Notes under the pieces: model-generated
The model's database searches: none
Told to the model about the DNA's origin: nothing
The model's input: the letters and a program-made list of their open reading frames with translations, nothing else
IMG/VR virus record: IMGVR_UViG_3300030125_000009
From: a virus
Taxonomy: Duplodnaviria; Heunggongvirae; Uroviricota; Caudoviricetes
Strand: one strand, 5' to 3'
Length of the DNA: 14,358 nt
Made by a program: the position numbers and the translations under genes
In this document: piece by piece, positions 2,693-10,112 of the stretch
Layout: each line of letters starts with the position of its first letter
Position numbering within the stretch: the first letter of the stretch is position 1

Positions 2693-3724
2693 CTAATTGC
2701 CATCTTCCAGCAGGCGCACCATTGCCCCTGTTTCACTATCCAGGTTACGGATATAGTTCATGACAATATTTACGTTGGTCCAGCCACCAGCTTGCATGAT
2801 CTCCGGTATTGAAACTCCGGCACGGGCCATATCTCGCGCGGCTCCGACACGGGCACTGTGTCCAGACCAGGCCAGGTACCTCTGTCCAGAGTCATCCTTA
2901 GCCCCGTAAATCAATCGGTGAGTTGCTTCAAAAATCCCTTCTAGGGCGCGAGTTGATAGCTGGCTGGTGGGTGATGGCGAGGCAACACCATTTTTTCTGA
3001 CCCGGCAAAACAGGTAGTTATTCGGATCATCAGCCACACCAGAGACAGAAATCCATCGTTCGACCAGTTTAGTTACCCCCAGGCTAAGTGCCTTCTCTAC
3101 ACCTGCGGTGCTAACCAGCGTTTTCGTTCTGCCAATATGGATTAACATTCTCCCACCGTCAGTACGTGAGATATCTTTAACCCTGATCCTGGCAATTTCG
3201 GCTATACGTAACAGGGTGTTATAAGCAATCCCCAGAAATGCCAGATTACGTATATCCTGGCAGCGATCGCTATTTTCCATGAGTGAACGAACCTGGTCGA
3301 AATCAGTGCGTTCGAACGCTAGTGCCTGTTTTGCACGTTCACCGGCATCAACGTTTTCTTTTCGGATCCGCCGCATAACCAGTGAAACAGCATTGCTATC
3401 ACTTGGTCGCTGCAGCCCGGACCGACGATGAAGCATGTTTAGCTGGCCCAAATGTTGCTGGATAGTTTTTACTGCCAGACCGCGCGCCTGAAGATATAGA
3501 AGATAATCGCGAACATCTTCAGGTTCTGCGGGAAACCATTTCCGGTTATTCAACTTGCACCATGCCGCCCACGACCGGCAAACGGACAGAAGCATTTTCC
3601 AGGTATGCTCAGAAAACGCCTGGCGATCCCTGAACATGTCCATCAGGTTCTTGCGAACCTCATCACTCGTTGCATCGACCGGCAATGCAGGCAAATTTTG
3701 GTGTACGGTCAGTAAATTGGACAT
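2693..3724 (-). CDS. cre: Cre site-specific tyrosine recombinase, 343 aa (variant)
   Basis: Translation MSNLLTVHQNLPALPVDATSDEVRKNLMDMFRDRQAFSEHTWKMLLSVCRSWAAWCKLNNRKWFPAEPEDVRDYLLYLQARGLAVKTIQQH... is Cre. It differs from the canonical Cre I remember at three positions (GVASPSPTSQ versus GVAAPSATSQ; C-terminal GN versus GD). Confidence 0.97.
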   Translation of the reverse strand: MSNLLTVHQNLPALPVDATSDEVRKNLMDMFRDRQAFSEHTWKMLLSVCRSWAAWCKLNNRKWFPAEPEDVRDYLLYLQARGLAVKTIQQHLGQLNMLHRRSGLQRPSDSNAVSLVMRRIRKENVDAGERAKQALAFERTDFDQVRSLMENSDRCQDIRNLAFLGIAYNTLLRIAEIARIRVKDISRTDGGRMLIHIGRTKTLVSTAGVEKALSLGVTKLVERWISVSGVADDPNNYLFCRVRKNGVASPSPTSQLSTRALEGIFEATHRLIYGAKDDSGQRYLAWSGHSARVGAARDMARAGVSIPEIMQAGGWTNVNIVMNYIRNLDSETGAMVRLLEDGN

Positions 3725-3731
3725 TTGACAC

Positions 3732-3953
3732 TCAGATAATGGTTTTAAGTAAAGTGTACAGGATCGGCTCTGCCTTTACCTGTTTATGGTTCTCGTCATA
3801 GAAACGCCAACGACCGCGACTGCGTTCTATCTTTTCTTCACCGCGCGATAATGACAGTTGACAACTATCACGATCAAACCCTTTTGCCCGCCAGTAACCA
3901 CGATTTTTCTCAAGCTCAAGATGAGTGGACACTTTAGCAGCTGAATATCCCAT
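3732..3953 (-). CDS. Hypothetical small basic protein, 73 aa, immediately upstream of cre (stop 7 nt before the cre ATG)
   Basis: ATG at 3953 preceded by AGAGGTGAAAA (good Shine-Dalgarno); product MGYSAAKVSTHLELEKNRGYWRAKGFDRDSCQLSLSRGEEKIERSRGRWRFYDENHKQVKAEPILYTLLKTII is rich in R/K. No homolog recognised from memory. Confidence 0.5.
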   Translation of the reverse strand: MGYSAAKVSTHLELEKNRGYWRAKGFDRDSCQLSLSRGEEKIERSRGRWRFYDENHKQVKAEPILYTLLKTII

Positions 3954-4142
3954 TTTTCACCTCTGATTGATTGGTGGTGCTAAGTGCGCTACGCGAAATC
4001 TGGAGCACTAACACTGCCAACATTTCGCAGATTTTACGTAGCGCAACCTTGATCAAATGATCAAGTGATCACTATTTGACCTGATAAGGTATTGAGCTGT
4101 ATGGATTTACAGGTAAATTGATCATGTTCAATAACCCTTAAG

Positions 4143-4176
4143 ATAACTTCGTATAATGTATGCTATACGAAGTTAT
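4143..4176 (-). other. loxP: loxP recombination site (34 bp, perfect: 13-bp inverted repeats ATAACTTCGTATA flanking spacer ATGTATGC)
   Basis: Exact string ataacttcgtataatgtatgctatacgaagttat; spacer orientation is consistent with cre on the minus strand. Confidence 0.97.
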
Positions 4177-4219
4177 CAGGTCCGAAGAGGAGTTTACGTC
4201 CAGCCGCGCACAAAAATCA

Positions 4220-4236
4220 AGAATTATTAGAGCAAT
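4220..4236 (-). promoter_or_regulatory. C1 operator (Op99-like, 15/17 match), minus-strand orientation, between loxP and coi
   Basis: Minus strand ATTGCTCTAATAATTCT; its orientation points toward loxP and cre. Confidence 0.6.
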
Positions 4237-4296
4237 AAATTTTGAGAGAAAAATCCCACTCCACCAGCTAAAAACTGGATTGTTTTTCATAGTTGT

Positions 4297-4323
4297 TTGA
4301 CAATTGCTCTAATAAATTATAGT
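4297..4323 (+). promoter_or_regulatory. Candidate coi-c1 promoter with embedded C1 operator (16/17 match): -35 TTGACA 4297-4302, operator ATTGCTCTAATAAATTA 4303-4319, -10 TATAGT 4318-4323
   Basis: Seen directly; the operator overlaps the promoter spacer, the classic arrangement for repressor autoregulation. Confidence 0.7.
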
Positions 4324-4557: not shown

Positions 4558-4767
4558 ATGGCTTTCATTCAACCAACCATCGACGACGTTAGACATTGCT
4601 CTAACGCTTTATCTGTAGACCCTGCCGAAACCGACGCTGCCCGCGCCATTGCTGAACACTACTCAAAGATATCCAATCAGGAGTACCGCATCACCCAAGA
4701 CGACCTGGATGACCTCACTGACACAATCGAATATCTCATGGCAACTAACCAGTTAGACTCACAATAA
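4558..4767 (+). CDS. coi: Coi, C1 inactivator, 69 aa
   Basis: Translation MAFIQPTIDDVRHCSNALSVDPAETDAARAIAEHYSKISNQEYRITQDDLDDLTDTIEYLMATNQLDSQ; size and position immediately upstream of c1 match P1 coi; Shine-Dalgarno GTGAGG upstream. Confidence 0.85.
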   Translation: MAFIQPTIDDVRHCSNALSVDPAETDAARAIAEHYSKISNQEYRITQDDLDDLTDTIEYLMATNQLDSQ

Positions 4768-4877: not shown

Positions 4878-5729
4878 ATGATAAATTATGTCTACGGCGA
4901 ACAACTGTACCAGGAGTTCGTCAGCTTCAGGGATCTCTTTCTAAAAAAAGCTGTTGCACGCGCCCAACACGTTGATACAGCCAGCGACGGTCGTCCTGTA
5001 CGCCCGGTTGTCGTTCTACCGTTCAAAGAAACTGACAGCATTCAGGCTGAAATTGATAAATGGACTTTAATGGCGCGGGAACTGGAACAGTACCCAGACC
5101 TCAATATCCCAAAGACTATTTTATATCCAGTGCCTAACATCCTTCGCGGTGTGCGCAAGGTTACAACTTATCAGACAGAAGCTGTGAACAGCGTCAACAT
5201 GACCGCTGGCCGCATTATTCATCTGATTGATAAGGACATTCGCATCCAAAAAAGCGCGGGGATCAATGAGCACAGTGCGAAATACATAGAGAACCTGGAA
5301 GCAACAAAAGAGCTAATGAGGCAGTACCCGGAGGATGAAAAATTCCGTATGCGCGTACACGGCTTTAGCGAAACAATGCTGCGCGTCCATTACATTTCCA
5401 GTAGCCCTAACTACAATGATGGTAAATCAGTTAGTTACCATGTGCCGCTGTGTGGTGTGTTTATCTGCGATGAAACTCTCCGTGATGGAATCATCATCAA
5501 CGGTGAATTCGAGAAAGCAAAATTTAGCCTTTATGACTCTATAGAACCGATCATCTGCGACCGCTGGCCGCAGGCAAAAATATATCGCCTGGCAGATATT
5601 GAAAATGTAAAAAAACAAATTGCCATCACTCGCGAAGAGAAAAAGGTCAAATCAGCCGCATCAGTTACGCGCAGCCGTAAAACCAAGAAGGGGCAGCCAG
5701 TAAACGACAACCCCGAAAGCGCGCAATAA
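4878..5729 (+). CDS. c1: C1 repressor of lysogeny, 283 aa
   Basis: Translation MINYVYGEQLYQEFVSFRDLFLKKAVARAQHVD... at 283 aa matches P1 C1 as I recall it; strong Shine-Dalgarno GGAGGAGG; many copies of its operator are present in the window. Confidence 0.93.
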   Translation: MINYVYGEQLYQEFVSFRDLFLKKAVARAQHVDTASDGRPVRPVVVLPFKETDSIQAEIDKWTLMARELEQYPDLNIPKTILYPVPNILRGVRKVTTYQTEAVNSVNMTAGRIIHLIDKDIRIQKSAGINEHSAKYIENLEATKELMRQYPEDEKFRMRVHGFSETMLRVHYISSSPNYNDGKSVSYHVPLCGVFICDETLRDGIIINGEFEKAKFSLYDSIEPIICDRWPQAKIYRLADIENVKKQIAITREEKKVKSAASVTRSRKTKKGQPVNDNPESAQ

Positions 5730-5761: not shown

Positions 5762-6628
5762 TTATTCAGCCGCCACCGGTTTTAACAAGCCAGCATCGAG
5801 CAGTTTACGCGTCAACCACTGCTGGCCTTTACCCGTTAATTGAGGCGTCAACCGTATCTGGTAGCCATCTTCATCATCCAGCACCACTTCTTTCACCGTG
5901 AAATACCCCGCGTTGATGTACTGCTGGAACGGCACATTTTTACGTCCACCGGACGCTATCAGGATGCCGTTCTCCCGTAACCAGACAAACAGCGCGTTTT
6001 GCTTAAGTCCAACAACCTTTGCAAAATTCCCAATCAGGATCCCTTTAGCTACTGATACCCGGTCGGCAAAATCGACTTTAGGAGCGGCGGCCACCAGCTG
6101 CTGATTTAGCTGGTGGGCTTTCTGTTCCAGAAGCTGCTTTTGTTCAGCCAGTTCGGCAGCCAGGCGCAGAGCTTCTGGAAGCGTCTGGGGGATTGCAACC
6201 GGTTGCTGTTCTTTTTGCCGGAAGTAGCTGTCTTCCAGTTTTTCAAAGAATGCCCATGCCTGATCGGTTTCGAGCATTTTAGCGTGGCGGGCTGCGCCGC
6301 GTTCCGTCCAGAGGATGAGTGAGCGGGCTTTAGGAGAGATAGGATTTTGTGAGTTACTTAAAGTCACCCGCAAATTGTTCAAATCATCTCCAATAACTTT
6401 ATAGAAATGCTTGCCTTCACAAAAACGTTCAGCATTACGGGAAAAGTTCTTCTTGATGTTATCCGCATCTGTCCCATACCCCTTAGCAAGGATCTTAGTT
6501 GTCACTACACGCACTCCCTGCCACTCTAGAACGGGAATTTCATCCGGCTGACTTTGAACAACCACCAGTTCTGATTCCTGAACTAAAGGTGTATTAATTT
6601 TTTCAGATTTAACGTTAGTAGCTTTCAT
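5762..6628 (-). CDS. ant2: Ant2, 288 aa, in-frame internal initiation product of the ant ORF
   Basis: Internal ATG at 6628 (MKATNVKSEK...) has its own strong Shine-Dalgarno AAGGAGG 8 nt upstream, in the same frame as ant1; this mirrors the P1 ant1/ant2 arrangement. Confidence 0.6.
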   Translation of the reverse strand: MKATNVKSEKINTPLVQESELVVVQSQPDEIPVLEWQGVRVVTTKILAKGYGTDADNIKKNFSRNAERFCEGKHFYKVIGDDLNNLRVTLSNSQNPISPKARSLILWTERGAARHAKMLETDQAWAFFEKLEDSYFRQKEQQPVAIPQTLPEALRLAAELAEQKQLLEQKAHQLNQQLVAAAPKVDFADRVSVAKGILIGNFAKVVGLKQNALFVWLRENGILIASGGRKNVPFQQYINAGYFTVKEVVLDDEDGYQIRLTPQLTGKGQQWLTRKLLDAGLLKPVAAE

Positions 6629-6877
6629 TCTGTGTGCCTCCTTGCGTGTTTCGGCTGCGACGGTTGCGTAATTCAGATGCCCCTGTTCGAGCAGGTATTC
6701 ACGGATATCAGACAGCAGGATACGGTGAACAGCGTTCTTGTCCTTTCTCCGGTAAAGTTGTTTGGTGATCATGAAGTAGTTGGCAATAACGCCAGGTATA
6801 TCCCTGGTACTGATACAGGCAGAGTGCTGTTCAATTGCCTCGATCATCTCTTCACGGGTAACTAACGATGTTCTCAT
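5762..6877 (-). CDS. ant1: Antirepressor Ant1, 371 aa (ORF6N/KilA-N-like N-terminal region plus Ant C-terminal domain); a second in-frame start gives Ant2
   Basis: ATG at 6877 preceded by AGGAGGG; the icd stop overlaps it (ATGA). Antirepressor-family domain assignment is from memory of the family, not from a search. Confidence 0.8.
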   Translation of the reverse strand: MRTSLVTREEMIEAIEQHSACISTRDIPGVIANYFMITKQLYRRKDKNAVHRILLSDIREYLLEQGHLNYATVAAETRKEAHRMKATNVKSEKINTPLVQESELVVVQSQPDEIPVLEWQGVRVVTTKILAKGYGTDADNIKKNFSRNAERFCEGKHFYKVIGDDLNNLRVTLSNSQNPISPKARSLILWTERGAARHAKMLETDQAWAFFEKLEDSYFRQKEQQPVAIPQTLPEALRLAAELAEQKQLLEQKAHQLNQQLVAAAPKVDFADRVSVAKGILIGNFAKVVGLKQNALFVWLRENGILIASGGRKNVPFQQYINAGYFTVKEVVLDDEDGYQIRLTPQLTGKGQQWLTRKLLDAGLLKPVAAE

Positions 6878-7095
6878 AGTCCCTCCTGAGCAGAAGCGTT
6901 AACAGGGAGGCACCAGTAACTGAGAGAATTGCGTGAATCAGTGGAAAAACGGGCAGAGAAAATACATGGGGCGTCAGGAAGCTGAGAGCGGGCCTCATCT
7001 TCTGTCGGTGCAATAACGAAGTGATAGTGACGTTTTTGGCAGGAGTAAAAGCGCCAGATAAATTCAGGATGAGTTGGGGTAGGGATAGTAGCCAT
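6874..7095 (-). CDS. icd: Icd-like protein (interference with cell division), 73 aa, translationally coupled to ant1
   Basis: ATG at 7095 preceded by AAGGAGG; product MATIPTPTHPEFIWRFYSCQKRHYHFVIAPTEDEARSQLPDAPCIFSARFSTDSRNSLSYWCLPVNASAQEGL; TGA stop overlaps the ant1 ATG; 73 codons equals the P1 icd length as I recall. Confidence 0.7.
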   Translation of the reverse strand: MATIPTPTHPEFIWRFYSCQKRHYHFVIAPTEDEARSQLPDAPCIFSARFSTDSRNSLSYWCLPVNASAQEGL

Positions 7096-7151
7096 ATTGG
7101 CAGCCTCCTTAGACGTTGGTATGTAACCACCGCAGAAGAGACCAATCTTGC

Positions 7152-7231
7152 TGGCGGTGGACTGTACGGAGTTGGCCTTACTGGCGTCCAAGGTAACCAG
7201 CCTACCCGAAGGTAGCCCCATACAGCCCACC
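7152..7231 (-). ncRNA. c4: Candidate c4-like antisense repressor RNA (about 80 nt, tRNA-like terminal stem, 3' GCCA)
   Basis: On the minus strand, GGUGGGCUGUAU pairs with GUACAGUCCACC as a 12-bp terminal stem, followed by GCCA; internal 5-bp hairpin with UUCG loop; the segment CCUUGGACG is complementary (9 bp, one G-U) to CGUCUAAGG, which overlaps the icd ribosome-binding site. Boundaries are approximate. Confidence 0.45.
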
Positions 7232-7260
7232 ATTGTAGAGGTGTGCGTGTACGCCGATAC

Positions 7261-7283
7261 AAAAAAAAGACGCGAGCGGCGTC
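7261..7283 (-). terminator. Rho-independent terminator downstream of pacB (hairpin GACGC-CGCUC-GCGUC plus U8)
   Basis: Hairpin followed by an 8-U run on the minus strand, about 150 nt after the pacB stop. Confidence 0.6.
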
Positions 7284-7414
7284 TGTATCGCCTTAGACTT
7301 AAGCGGGAGGCCAATCCCGGCACCCGTTTTAATGAGGTGCCTGATAAGCATAAACCGAAAATGCCTCAAGGCGCAAGAGGTCAGGTTCAATGTAACATCG
7401 GCAGTTAAAAAACA

Positions 7415-7434: not shown

Positions 7435-8919
7435 TCATTCATTAAGCCATGCCAGAGCTTCATCAACCTGCGCTTCGTCTTCGACGCTAAGCACTTCATC
7501 TTGGGGAACATAATCCGCCAGCATAGCGAAACAATATGTATCCCAATGGTCTGGTGAGTGCAGGTTGAGTTTTTTCTTCATATCCTCCTTACTCATCACC
7601 TTCCATTGACCTGCGGAGTTAATCCCTACAGGGATTTTCGACGCTTCCTCAATAGTTTCATTACCCTTATCCAGTCTCATACGACCAGATTTTACGGCCT
7701 CTGCGGCTTGAACGTTGGCATAAGCACGTTTATCAAAGTACAGGCTCTTATCTTCACGGCTATGCATCTTTTTACCCCAGCGTATACGCTGTACGGTAAT
7801 ACCATAATACTCGTACATCAGATCCGCCGTTGCTTTACCCAGGCCATCGCCGTCTATCGCTATGGTAATATTTGGGAATCGCTCAGGATTACATTCTGCG
7901 AAAATTTTGGCGGCAAGCTGCGTTTCTGTAACGTCTGTGTATTCCAGCATTCGATAGTTGATTACACGGCGTTTATTTCTCTGGCCGGACACCATCATGA
8001 TATTGATAACGGACTTATCCCTTCCCGTACCACCAGCAACGTCCACACATGCAAGCCAGCCCCATCCTTTGGCAATCTTGACTTTCCGCCGCGTTGCACG
8101 TTCAACCTCATCACGTCCAAGAAGGAAGCCATCCTGTGATTTAGGGAATAGGCCGCGTACCTTAATCATGTACATAGGGTTATCGCGCCCGCCGTACTCC
8201 GCCAGCTTCATTTTGATAAATGCTGGCGTTACCAGCGGTGATTCCTCACTGTTAAGCGTGATCGCCGTATAAACGCCATCAGGGTTACCAGGACGCTTGG
8301 CCAGTTTATGGTGAGTATCGTAGAAATAGCCGCTTGGGCGTGTAGGCTGTGACAGTAATAAGATGCGGTTATCCTGTCCGGTAAGAGCACCGGTGATGAT
8401 ACCGAAAGCTCTATCACTGACACCGGAGGCTTCATCGATAATATACAGAAGATGATCTGCGTGTTCACCGGCGAGAGCTTCTTCACTTCCCAGACGAAAG
8501 CCCTTCGGTACTACAGTCCATACACCTTTACCAGTAACCTCATAGAAAGCGGTTTCTGTCAGAACAAAATAATCAGCAAGCCACGGAAAACGGCTGGTGG
8601 CCGTAGCCCAGTTTATCTTGATGTACTTGAATATACCGGTCATTACCTGCTGAATTTTGTTCGCAACGATAATGGCGCGGGCACCGGGATACATGATTAT
8701 GAACAACATGATCATGATAGAAGTCATGTCTGATTTCCCGGTACCGTGACCAGACGAAACAGATGTCTTGCTACCCTGTTCCTGCACAGACTCAATAATC
8801 AGATCCTGCTGCCAGGTAGGTGTTTTGCCGAACAAAACATCAGCGGCAGCAATCCAGTCATAACGATATAGCGCCACCAGCTCGCGCCAACGTGGATCCG
8901 TTACGCAACTTCTGGCCAT
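7435..8919 (-). CDS. pacB: PacB, pacase (terminase) large subunit, 494 aa
   Basis: Translation [22 protein letters not shown]...; size and position (after pacA, start overlapping the pacA stop as TAATG) match P1 pacB. Confidence 0.9.
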
Positions 8920-10112
8920 TAATCATCATCCCCGTATAGCTTGCGGGTAACTTCTTCGTCTTCCTCCTCGTCTTCGTCCAGGTCTTGTTCCAGCCATGGG
9001 TCGTTTGATACACCTTCAGTATCAACATCTCCATAACCGCCTGTATCAACGATATCGGCGATTTCTTCCCTACGCTGCTCAATCCACAATGCGGCATCGG
9101 CGCGGCGGTTGGCGGCCCGTTCTCGCGCAACTTTGTCCAGATCTTCAAGAGAAGGGCCACCGACGGCTGTTTGCCTTTCCTCATCATCGGTATTGGTCTT
9201 AGGAGCACGCAGATCGGCTTTGATTTGCTCCAGCATCAGGGGCGGCACTTTTCCGCCATGCGCCTCGATGAATTCAGCTGCTTCCAGCACTGACCAGTTA
9301 TTTTCACGCTTTCGTTCGTATGCCAGCTTAACAATGCCAGCTTGCCCCATAGACAAAGCGTGCTTTTCCGCCTCCCGGCTTTCTTTTCGATAGTTATTCC
9401 GGATGCTGTAAATGGTGTTGATCAGGCTGCTTATCTGCGCGGAACAGCTGTTTAGCATGCTCGCGATACGGTATTCAGGCGGAGTACCTTCATCATCGTC
9501 TTTTTGCTGATCGCGCATTTCCTGCACCAGGCGAATACACGTATCCCTGGCGTTCTCCAGCATAAGGAGATGAGAAAGAGACTTTTCCAGAAGAGTGGTT
9601 TCCAGAACATCGGCCCCGGACCGACGCAACATAGCGCGCGCGGCCTTCCGCGCTTCAACGTTATCTATCAGGTAATCGCCAGCTTCGAATTCAAAGCGTT
9701 CACCATCATCATCCAGGGTGTCGCGTTCCAGGCGATCACGTAAGGTCCGGTGGGCGCGGGTGATCACGTCATGATCATCTGAACGATCATTTATGCGCTT
9801 ATTTTGGCGCTTCGCATTATCGACTGCGGCACTGACAACGGCATTAACTCTTTGTTTTTCATCCATTTCAGCCACAACGTGATCACCTGCACGTTGATCA
9901 TTAGCGTGATCAATGATCATGCTTTTTAGTGGTTTCCTGACAGGCTTATTTGGCTTACGGCTGTCCGCTGTTCCGGTGTCTTCTTTGAATGCACGGAGAT
10001 AACGACGTGCGGTGTTTGGGTTGAGATTAAACTCGGCGGCATATTGTGCGATGGTGTAACCACCATCTCGCGCCAGGCGAGCAAAATTCTTCTTGTGATC
10101 GTCCCAGGTCAC
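8919..10112 (-). CDS. pacA: PacA, pacase small subunit, 397 aa, with the pac site inside its coding sequence; GTG start
   Basis: Translation (V/M)[41 protein letters not shown]... with acidic C-terminal tail; GTG start preceded by AAGGAAG and an in-frame TAA just upstream. Confidence 0.9.
9734..9919. other. pac: pac packaging site: two clusters of TGATCA/GATC hexamers (Dam sites) within pacA
   Basis: TGATCA at 9761, 9772, 9880, 9895, 9907 and 9914, plus CGATCA at 9733 and 9785, flanking a spacer of about 90 bp; matches the known P1 pac architecture. Confidence 0.8.

What the first reader, a model, noticed from the sequence alone, without database searches (positions are those of the whole stretch)
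3732..4142. Uncharacterised 73-aa basic protein encoded between loxP and cre, possibly co-transcribed with cre
The ORF has a strong Shine-Dalgarno and ends 7 nt before the cre ATG. The intergenic region up to loxP holds a cluster of GATC sites (4055-4130), and a C1 operator match (4220-4236) is oriented toward it. The protein is highly basic, suggesting nucleic-acid binding. I do not recall an annotated gene at this position in P1.
Basis: partly seen in the sequence, partly recalled or inferred. Interest (0 to 1): 0.45.

Follow-up and report, generated by a model that had tools for sequence, protein, structure and literature searches.

The report
Known P1 gene cra, upstream of cre
The 73-codon reading frame between loxP and cre is the long-annotated phage P1 gene cra: a real, conserved protein-coding gene whose control region is already mapped but whose function is still unknown, so the finding is not new.

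Summary
A 73-aa ORF lies at 3732-3953 (-), with a GAGGTG Shine-Dalgarno, and its stop is 7 nt before the cre ATG. The claim that nothing is annotated here is wrong. This is ORF1 of the 1986 P1 cre sequence (X03453), named cra in the P1 genome record and Upf0.2 in P7. The GATC sites, the C1 operator (Oc1e/Op99e) and the promoters P1cre to P4cre are all annotated in AF234172.

New evidence here shows that the frame is a real gene. It is intact in four diverged P1-like lineages (59-69% aa identity), with saturated synonymous sites and dN/dS of 0.07-0.34. It is intact in 78 of 81 P1-like contigs chosen without regard to cra.

Cra belongs to a wider family of 65-81-aa basic phage proteins (PHROG 804). 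Some members sit in SSU5-like plasmid-prophages and lytic Ackermannviridae with no recombinase called in the 3.5 kb on either side. A specific Cre accessory role is therefore doubtful.

The predicted fold (two helices, four strands, one helix; pLDDT 87) matches no characterised structure. The likeliest reading is a dispensable small nucleic-acid-binding accessory protein, first cistron of a cra-cre unit. Novelty: already known. Interest: low.

The parts
3732..3953 (-). cra coding sequence (73 aa), the ORF of the finding
   Evidence: PHROG 804, E = 9e-35. dN/dS 0.07-0.34.
3958..3963 (-). Shine-Dalgarno GAGGTG of cra, 4 nt before the ATG
   Evidence: Sequence read. A ribosome-binding site is annotated at the same place in X03453.
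3725..3731 (-). 7-nt spacer between the cra stop and the cre ATG. Its length is the same in all lineages but its sequence is not. No canonical SD for cre. Likely site of translational coupling (inferred).
2693..3724 (-). cre (343 aa tyrosine recombinase)
3736..3760 (-). Promoter P1cre (pR3) inside the 3' end of cra. Its -35 TGTACA lies in the stretch CTGTACACT (3753-3761), which is invariant in all lineages, third codon positions included.
   Evidence: Mapped from the P1 annotation 400-424. Invariance.
3848..3877 (-). Promoter P2cre (pR2) inside cra: TTGATC-N18-CATTAT, with a GATC in the -35. Not conserved in the diverged relatives.
   Evidence: Mapped from the P1 annotation 283-312. Sequences.
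4031..4056 (-). Promoter P3cre (pR1) upstream of cra: -35 TTGATC at 4051-4056 containing a Dam site, -10 TAAAAT at 4031-4036
   Evidence: Mapped from the P1 annotation 104-129. Sequence.
3985..4045 (.). 18-nt inverted repeat in the cra leader (arms 3985-4002 and 4028-4045). The promoter-proximal arm contains the pR1 -10. Conserved in five lineages. Role unknown.
   Evidence: (I2).
4051..4070 (.). Three GATC (Dam) sites at 4051, 4059 and 4067, overlapping or adjoining the pR1 -35
   Evidence: Annotated as Dam sites in P1 and P7.
4120..4123 (.). Fourth GATC (Dam site 1 of the P1 annotation), invariant in all lineages
4095..4114 (.). LexA box (core CTGTATGGATTTACAG at 4097-4112), overlapped by promoter P2coi (4092-4119, + strand), which fires away from cra
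   Evidence: P1/P7 annotation. Largely conserved in alignment A2: the CTG and TCCATACAG parts are invariant.
4143..4176 (.). loxP (34 bp)
   Evidence: (I3).
4191..4220 (-). Promoter P4cre (TTGATT-N18-TAAACT), reading through loxP towards cra and cre
   Evidence: Mapped from the P1 annotation 94740-94769. Sequence.
4220..4236 (-). C1 operator Oc1e (Op99e)
   Evidence: Mapped from the P1 annotation 94724-94740, 'may control expression of cra and cre'. It forms an inverted pair with Oc1d at 4303-4319 (I1).

Best explanation
The ORF is the known phage P1 gene cra (ORF1 of the 1986 cre sequence).

Shown here: cra is a real protein-coding gene under purifying selection. It is the first cistron of a cra-cre unit.

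Taken from the P1 annotation: the unit is served by P3cre/pR1 (Dam sites in its -35) and by the C1-controlled P4cre on the far side of loxP. Two further cre promoters (pR2, pR3) lie inside cra.

Inferred: cre has no good ribosome-binding site, and it starts a fixed 7 nt after the cra stop in every lineage. Part of Cre synthesis is therefore probably coupled to translation of cra.

Inferred, about one chance in three: the protein itself is a small basic domain (two helices, four strands, one helix) of a family found widely in enterobacterial phages, and most likely binds nucleic acid as a dispensable accessory factor rather than as a dedicated Cre cofactor.

The 0.85 confidence refers to identity, reality as a gene and operon layout. 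The biochemical role is only a best guess.
For: Identity:
- 96-98% DNA identity to P1, P7 and other P1-like records, where this ORF is annotated cra, Cra, ORF1 or Upf0.2.
- PHROG 804, E = 9e-35.

Coding:
- Four diverged lineages (Klebsiella, Salmonella, Cronobacter, other Enterobacteriaceae; 59-69% aa identity) keep the frame, with only a 2-codon length difference at the N-terminus.
- Synonymous sites are saturated while dN is 0.24-0.35. dN/dS is 0.07-0.34 where it can be computed.
- Third codon positions vary almost everywhere.
- 78 of 81 IMG/VR contigs picked by the cre start alone carry an intact 73-aa cra.

Operon:
- Annotated promoters, Dam sites and Oc1e map exactly onto the window.
- cra and cre are both among the genes under-induced at 20 min in an hfq mutant during P1vir infection, so cra transcripts were detected.
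- The 7-nt spacer has the same length in all lineages, with no conserved SD.
- In the relatives, cra itself overlaps the upstream gene by ATGA.

Dispensable:
- CRISPRi knock-down gave an efficiency of plating of 0.66 and was scored non-essential, in agreement with earlier literature (PMC10695390).
- Natural start-loss and frameshift alleles exist.

Not specific to Cre:
- Homologues in SSU5-like plasmid-prophages, in ~89-kb elements beside umuDC-like genes, and in lytic Ackermannviridae (ST-W77) have no recombinase called in the 3.5 kb fetched on either side.

Nucleic-acid binding (weak evidence):
- pI is 9.0-10.7 across the family.
- Conserved residues include R37 and W49 (invariant) and the near-invariant motif G-Y-W-R-A-K-G-F.
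- The AlphaFold model is confident: pLDDT 87, pTM 0.73.
Against: - No experiment or homology assigns a biochemical activity.
- Pfam, NCBIfam and PADLOC give nothing.
- Foldseek against the PDB finds nothing significant.
- BFVD matches are all uncharacterised phage proteins.
- A net charge of +5 is only moderately basic.
- Translational coupling is inferred from spacing only. The pR3 promoter inside cra can make cre mRNA that lacks the cra start.
- The steady linkage of cra to cre in every P1-like lineage would also fit a Cre-related role.
Confidence: 0.85

Rival explanations
1. Cra is a true Cre-associated factor. It would be either a regulator of the cra-cre promoters (for example acting at the conserved inverted repeat over the pR1 -10) or an accessory protein that biases Cre-lox recombination towards resolution in the natural P1 context.
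For: - cra lies directly upstream of cre, at a fixed 7-nt distance, in every P1-like lineage examined.
- A conserved 18-nt inverted repeat covers the pR1 -10 in all of them.
- The protein is basic.
- How P1 favours multimer resolution is unsettled: host PepA and ArgR have been excluded as regulators (PMC2409434).
Against: - Family members in SSU5-like elements, ~89-kb elements and Ackermannviridae have no recombinase called in the 3.5 kb fetched on either side.
- The inverted-repeat motif is not found, as an inverted pair or next to the homologue, in those loci.
- No helix-turn-helix or Xis-like fold.
- Cre alone recombines loxP in vitro and in foreign hosts (established knowledge).
- cra is lost in some natural P1-like plasmids.
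Confidence: 0.15
2. Cra is a host-directed accessory protein (host take-over or counter-defence) that merely happens to sit in the cre operon of P1-like phages.
For: - It is small and non-essential.
- It is spread among unrelated enterobacterial phages, lytic ones included, in variable neighbourhoods of small unknown genes.
- In the relatives the same operon also holds a mobile 356-aa gene shared with Vibrio, Bordetella and Sinorhizobium phages.
Against: - No match to known defence or anti-defence models.
- No experimental hint.
- The position next to cre and loxP is stable over saturated synonymous divergence.
Confidence: 0.2
3. The protein is irrelevant. The ORF persists only because the DNA carries the cre promoters pR2 and pR3 and spaces cre from loxP.
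For: - Two annotated cre promoters lie inside the ORF.
- CTGTACACT at the pR3 -35 is invariant even at third codon positions.
- cra is non-essential.
Against: - dN/dS is 0.07-0.34 with saturated dS.
- The frame is kept in all lineages.
- pR2 is not conserved in the relatives, although the protein is.
- Homologues at 30-40% identity occur in unrelated phages with no cre.
Confidence: 0.03

Closest known systems
P1 Cra (AAQ13977, AF234172 207-428), which is ORF1 of X03453 and Upf0.2 of P7
   Same: Same gene: same place between loxP and cre, same strand, same 73-aa length, 2-3 amino-acid differences, and the same upstream Dam sites, LexA box, promoters and Oc1e operator.
   Different: Only allelic differences. 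In the cra-loxP region the window is closest to phiW39 and SJ46 (97.7% identity) among the phage records; it has four GATC sites, like P7, where P1 has three.
Cra homologues of D6-like, Klebsiella and Cronobacter P1-like plasmid-prophages (P0023-P0031)
   Same: 59-69% identical. Directly upstream of a cre homologue at 7 nt, downstream of an identical or near-identical loxP, the same LexA box, the same GATC sites and the same leader inverted repeat.
   Different: There cra is the third or second gene. A 68-aa gene (PHROG 19934; absent in one lineage) and a 356-aa gene (PHROG 7674) lie between the leader and cra, and the cra ATG overlaps the upstream stop (ATGA). In P1 and in the window the leader is joined directly to cra, which has its own SD and two extra N-terminal codons.
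SSU5-type 'putative Cre-associated protein' and Ackermannviridae homologues (PHROG 804 in the wide sense)
   Same: Same family by profile search (E 1e-26 to 1e-12), same length class, the same conserved motif (E-[IL]-E-K-x-x-G-Y-W-R-A-K-G-F, then R, D, I, W, and a C-terminal L-L-x-L-L-K), and basic.
   Different: No recombinase is called in the 3.5 kb fetched on either side. Neighbours are a Rep3 replication gene, umuDC-like genes, or a DenV-like endonuclease. The name 'Cre-associated' is carried over by homology only.
Recombination directionality factors and accessory proteins of tyrosine recombinases (lambda Xis, P2 Cox)
   Same: A small basic protein encoded next to a tyrosine recombinase gene.
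   Different: No sequence or fold similarity. The family is not tied to recombinases. Cre needs no accessory protein (established knowledge).

Membership tests
P1 cra (ORF1 / PHROG 804) | Sequence homology to P1 Cra over the full length | tested here: met
   2-3 amino-acid differences from P1 and P7 Cra. PHROG 804 E = 9e-35 over residues 3-73. 96-98% DNA identity to records annotated cra.
P1 cra (ORF1 / PHROG 804) | Position between loxP and cre, same strand as cre, stop 7 nt before the cre ATG | tested here: met
   Window coordinate = 4160 minus P1 coordinate. P1 207-428 maps to 3953-3732 and P1 436-1467 maps to 3724-2693.
P1 cra (ORF1 / PHROG 804) | The P1 regulatory set upstream: Dam sites, P3cre/pR1, LexA box, loxP, P4cre, Oc1e | tested here: met
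   All annotated P1 features fall on matching sequence in the window.
Recombination directionality factor / tyrosine-recombinase accessory protein | Xis/Cox-type DNA-binding fold (winged helix or HTH) | tested here: not met
Recombination directionality factor / tyrosine-recombinase accessory protein | Family members consistently encoded beside a recombinase | tested here: not met
   True only in P1-like elements. No recombinase in the 3.5 kb flanks of the SSU5-like, ~89-kb and Ackermannviridae homologues.
Recombination directionality factor / tyrosine-recombinase accessory protein | The protein alters the direction or efficiency of recombination | not testable with these tools
   This needs genetics or biochemistry. 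Established knowledge is that Cre alone suffices at loxP.
Ribosomal protein bL36 (zinc ribbon) | Significant sequence similarity | tested here: inconclusive
   The A5 profile against PDB sequences matched mitochondrial bL36 at E = 0.04 over 38 residues.
Ribosomal protein bL36 (zinc ribbon) | Conserved Cys/His zinc ligands | tested here: not met
   No Cys or His column is conserved in the 47-sequence alignment. The window protein has a single Cys.
Creatininase (the name NCBI gives many members) | Creatinine amidohydrolase domain, about 260 aa | tested here: not met
   The protein is 73 aa. No such Pfam or NCBIfam hit for it or for 46 relatives. The name is a misnomer.
T4 MotA C-terminal 'double-wing' DNA-binding domain | Fold match | tested here: inconclusive

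The most novel reading that the evidence does not exclude
Cra may be the missing phage-encoded modulator of the natural Cre-lox system. In this reading it is a small nucleic-acid-binding protein of a new fold. It would either set the Cre level through the translationally coupled cra-cre unit and the conserved inverted repeat over pR1, or bias recombination towards multimer resolution. It would have been recruited from a wider family of phage accessory proteins.
Probability: 0.12. Interest if true: 0.5.

Novelty: already known. Interest (0 to 1): 0.15.

Why it matters
Cre-loxP is among the most widely used tools in genetics, yet the gene immediately upstream of cre in its native phage has no known function nearly 40 years after it was sequenced. 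The present work settles three points:
- cra is a real, selected gene.
- It belongs to a family that is not tied to recombinases.
- cre is probably translationally coupled to it.

None of this changes how Cre is used, and the gene and its control elements are already on record. The remaining question, what Cra does, is a small open problem in P1 biology.

Tried and rejected
- Pfam, NCBIfam and PADLOC scans of Cra and 46 relatives gave no family.
- PDB sequence profile search gave only a weak bL36 match (E 0.04). I rejected it because the zinc ligands are not conserved.
- P0054, a 1499-aa hit with five matched stretches, is an ankyrin-repeat protein and therefore spurious.
- Tested whether the 356-aa gene upstream of cra in the relatives is related to P1 PdcB: it is not.
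- Rfam on the leader and lox region gave no hit.
- The generic promoter and terminator scan found none of the published weak promoters, so it is uninformative here.
- Looked for the leader inverted-repeat motif near the non-P1 Cra homologues: the paired repeat is absent there, so there is no support for Cra binding it.
- The search for related loci with the distant alignments failed for lack of a conserved stretch.
- The Lobocka 2004 P1 genome paper is not in the held library. The Sternberg 1986 cre paper was not looked up; it appeared only as a reference-list title. What they say is therefore taken from the GenBank annotations and from my own knowledge.

Full report
**What the window is.** The region is a P1-like phage (Punavirus). 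On the minus strand, cre runs 2693-3724 and a 73-aa ORF runs 3732-3953. loxP is at 4143-4176. On the plus strand beyond it lie coi (4558-4767) and c1 (4878-5729).

Megablast of 3600-4300 finds 24 phage records. The best 21 are 96-98% identical, and there the ORF is annotated cra, Cra, 'putative Cre-associated (regulatory) protein', Upf0.2 (P7), or 'pot. ORF1 (aa 1-73)' in the 1986 entry X03453. The window maps onto P1 (AF234172) by the rule window = 4160 minus P1 coordinate. Thus P1 cra 207-428 corresponds to 3953-3732, and P1 cre 436-1467 corresponds to 3724-2693.

**Checking the observation.**
- The ORF is there.
- The SD GAGGTG sits 4 nt before the ATG, and a 7-nt gap separates the cra stop from the cre ATG.
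- A C1-operator match lies at 4220-4236.

The GATC cluster is not striking by count. About 5% of simulated sequences have three sites in 20 bp somewhere. But two of the sites are invariant across five diverged lineages.

All of these elements are already annotated in P1:
- Dam sites 1-3 'within the regulatory region of cre'.
- Promoter P3cre (pR1), whose -35 TTGATC holds a Dam site.
- P2cre (pR2) and P1cre (pR3), both inside cra.
- A LexA box overlapped by the outward promoter P2coi.
- On the other side of loxP, promoter P4cre and operator Oc1e (Op99e), 'may control expression of cra and cre'.

P7 has a fourth Dam site, as the window does.

**Is it a real gene?** A protein search found full-length relatives at 59-69% identity in Salmonella, Klebsiella, Cronobacter and other Enterobacteriaceae. 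In all of them the gene lies 7 nt upstream of a cre homologue on ~90-kb P1-like contigs that also carry c1 and coi.

The frame is kept, with only a 2-codon difference at the N-terminus. Between the P1 group and these lineages the synonymous sites are saturated while dN is 0.24-0.35. Where it can be computed, dN/dS is 0.07-0.34, against 0.02-0.09 for cre. Third codon positions vary almost everywhere.

To avoid selecting on cra itself, I fetched IMG/VR contigs by an exact 25-mer at the cre start. Of 81 contigs with enough upstream sequence, 78 have an intact 73-aa cra. The other three carry ATG to CTG, a -1 frameshift and a +1 frameshift. Truncated alleles also show up as database clusters, for example P0043 on 115 contigs.

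The gene is therefore under purifying selection but can be lost. This agrees with a CRISPRi screen of P1, where cra knock-down gave an efficiency of plating of 0.66 and was scored non-essential, as in the older literature (PMC10695390). In a P1vir transcriptome study, cra and cre are listed together among the genes under-induced at 20 min in an hfq mutant, so cra transcripts are detected during lytic growth.

**Operon anatomy.** The stretch from loxP to the first gene is conserved in all five lineages. It holds the LexA box, the GATC sites, an 18-nt inverted repeat and CCAATCAATCAG.

In P1, P7 and the window this leader runs straight into the cra SD. In the relatives it runs into a 68-aa gene (absent in one lineage), then a 356-aa gene whose stop overlaps the cra ATG (ATGA), then cra, then cre. 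Both extra genes are PHROGs of unknown function. The 356-aa gene has homologues in Vibrio, Bordetella, Sinorhizobium and Microcystis phages.

The cra-cre spacer is always 7 nt but differs in sequence and lacks a canonical SD. I take this as a sign of translational coupling; that is an inference. The pR3 -35 (TGTACA) lies in CTGTACACT, the only place where three successive third positions are invariant. pR2 is not conserved in the relatives.

**Beyond P1.** A profile search of 1.8 billion representatives, followed by a second word-indexed search, found 65-81-aa relatives at 30-40% identity.

Their genomic contexts differ from P1:
- In SSU5-like ~110-kb plasmid-prophages, the gene is the last of a run of small unknown genes and faces a Rep3 replication gene.
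- In ~89-kb elements, it lies next to umuDC-like genes.
- In lytic Ackermannviridae such as ST-W77, it lies between an acyl-carrier-like gene and a DenV-like endonuclease.

None has a recombinase called in the 3.5 kb fetched on either side. Annotators of SSU5 and of phage Cyrano had already carried over the name 'Cre-associated protein' by homology. The family is basic throughout, with pI 9.0-10.7. It shares the near-invariant motif E-[IL]-E-K-x-x-G-Y-W-R-A-K-G-F, invariant R37 and W49, near-invariant D39 and I42, and a C-terminal L-L-x-L-L-K helix.

**Structure.** With the 47-sequence alignment, AlphaFold2 gives a confident model: pLDDT 87, pTM 0.73. It has helices at 5-16 and 18-23, four strands between 34 and 62, and a helix at 65-71. 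An 11-sequence alignment had given only pLDDT 69.

The fold searches gave:
- Foldseek against the PDB found nothing (best E 0.9).
- BFVD returned only uncharacterised small proteins of Klebsiella, Hafnia, Erwinia and Serratia phages, with TM 0.6-0.77.

A weak profile match to mitochondrial bL36 (E 0.04) is not backed by conserved zinc ligands. No known function can be transferred.

**Interpretation.** The identity (cra), its reality as a gene, and its place as the first cistron of a unit under Dam, C1 and several promoters are secure.

For the mechanism I commit to the following, in falling order of confidence:
- Cra is made from the pR1 and P4cre transcripts, and part of cre translation depends on ribosomes finishing cra.
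- Cra is a dispensable accessory protein.
- It acts by binding nucleic acid.

A dedicated Cre cofactor or autoregulator remains possible at about 0.15, because the linkage to cre is stable and a conserved inverted repeat covers the pR1 -10. Against this, the family occurs without an adjacent recombinase, and the paired repeat is absent near those homologues.

A host-directed role is about as likely, at 0.2. A purely DNA-level role for the ORF is excluded by the substitution pattern.

**Verdict.** The gene and all the flanking signals are already known and annotated. What remains open is only the function of Cra. Interest is low.

Noticed in passing
Protein clusters P0002, P0005, P0006, P0011 and others: NCBI/nr name this 73-aa phage protein family 'creatininase'. 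No creatininase domain is detectable in it or in 46 relatives. This is a misnomer that has spread through hundreds of E. coli and Salmonella records.
   Followed up: partly
window 3985-4002 and 4028-4045: An 18-nt inverted repeat lies in the cra leader, and one arm holds the pR1 -10. Both arms are conserved in five lineages with one compensatory change. As RNA it folds at -32.4 kcal/mol, z = -3.1. There is no Rfam match. It could be an operator, or a structure formed only in read-through transcripts from P4cre.
   Followed up: partly
L006 1698-3004 (also L005-L014): Diverged P1-like plasmid-prophages carry a 68-aa gene (PHROG 19934) and a 356-aa gene (PHROG 7674) between the conserved lox-proximal leader and cra. 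P1, P7 and the window lack both. The 356-aa gene also occurs in Vibrio, Bordetella, Sinorhizobium and Microcystis phages.
   Followed up: partly
window 4097-4112: A perfect LexA box, CTGTATGGATTTACAG, lies between loxP and the Dam sites. Its CTG and TCCATACAG parts are invariant in all five lineages. It is annotated in P1 and P7, and in P1 it is overlapped by promoter P2coi, which fires through loxP towards coi.
   Followed up: partly
window 3753-3761: CTGTACACT near the 3' end of cra is invariant in all lineages, including three consecutive third codon positions. It coincides with the -35 of promoter pR3 (P1cre).
   Followed up: partly
L123, L131, L170 (IMG/VR P1-like contigs): Natural loss-of-function alleles of cra: start codon ATG to CTG, a 1-nt deletion, and a 1-nt insertion in an A run. 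The truncated product of the deletion type is seen on 115 contigs (P0043).
   Followed up: yes
window 5762-7323: Between c1 and pacB the window carries about 1.6 kb that P1 lacks. It encodes an antirepressor-like 371-aa ORF and a second ORF, as in phage RCS47 (ant) and JL22 (roi).
   Followed up: partly
window 9734-9918: A dense GATC cluster (9 sites) lies inside the 5' part of pacA (8919-10112, minus strand). This is the expected position of the Dam-regulated P1 pac site. The assignment to pac rests on my own knowledge.
   Followed up: no
window 4078-4087 and 4173-4182: A 10-nt perfect inverted repeat, GACCTGATAA / TTATCAGGTC, brackets loxP (I4). P1 has a mismatch in it and the relatives do not keep it, so it is probably chance.
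   Followed up: partly
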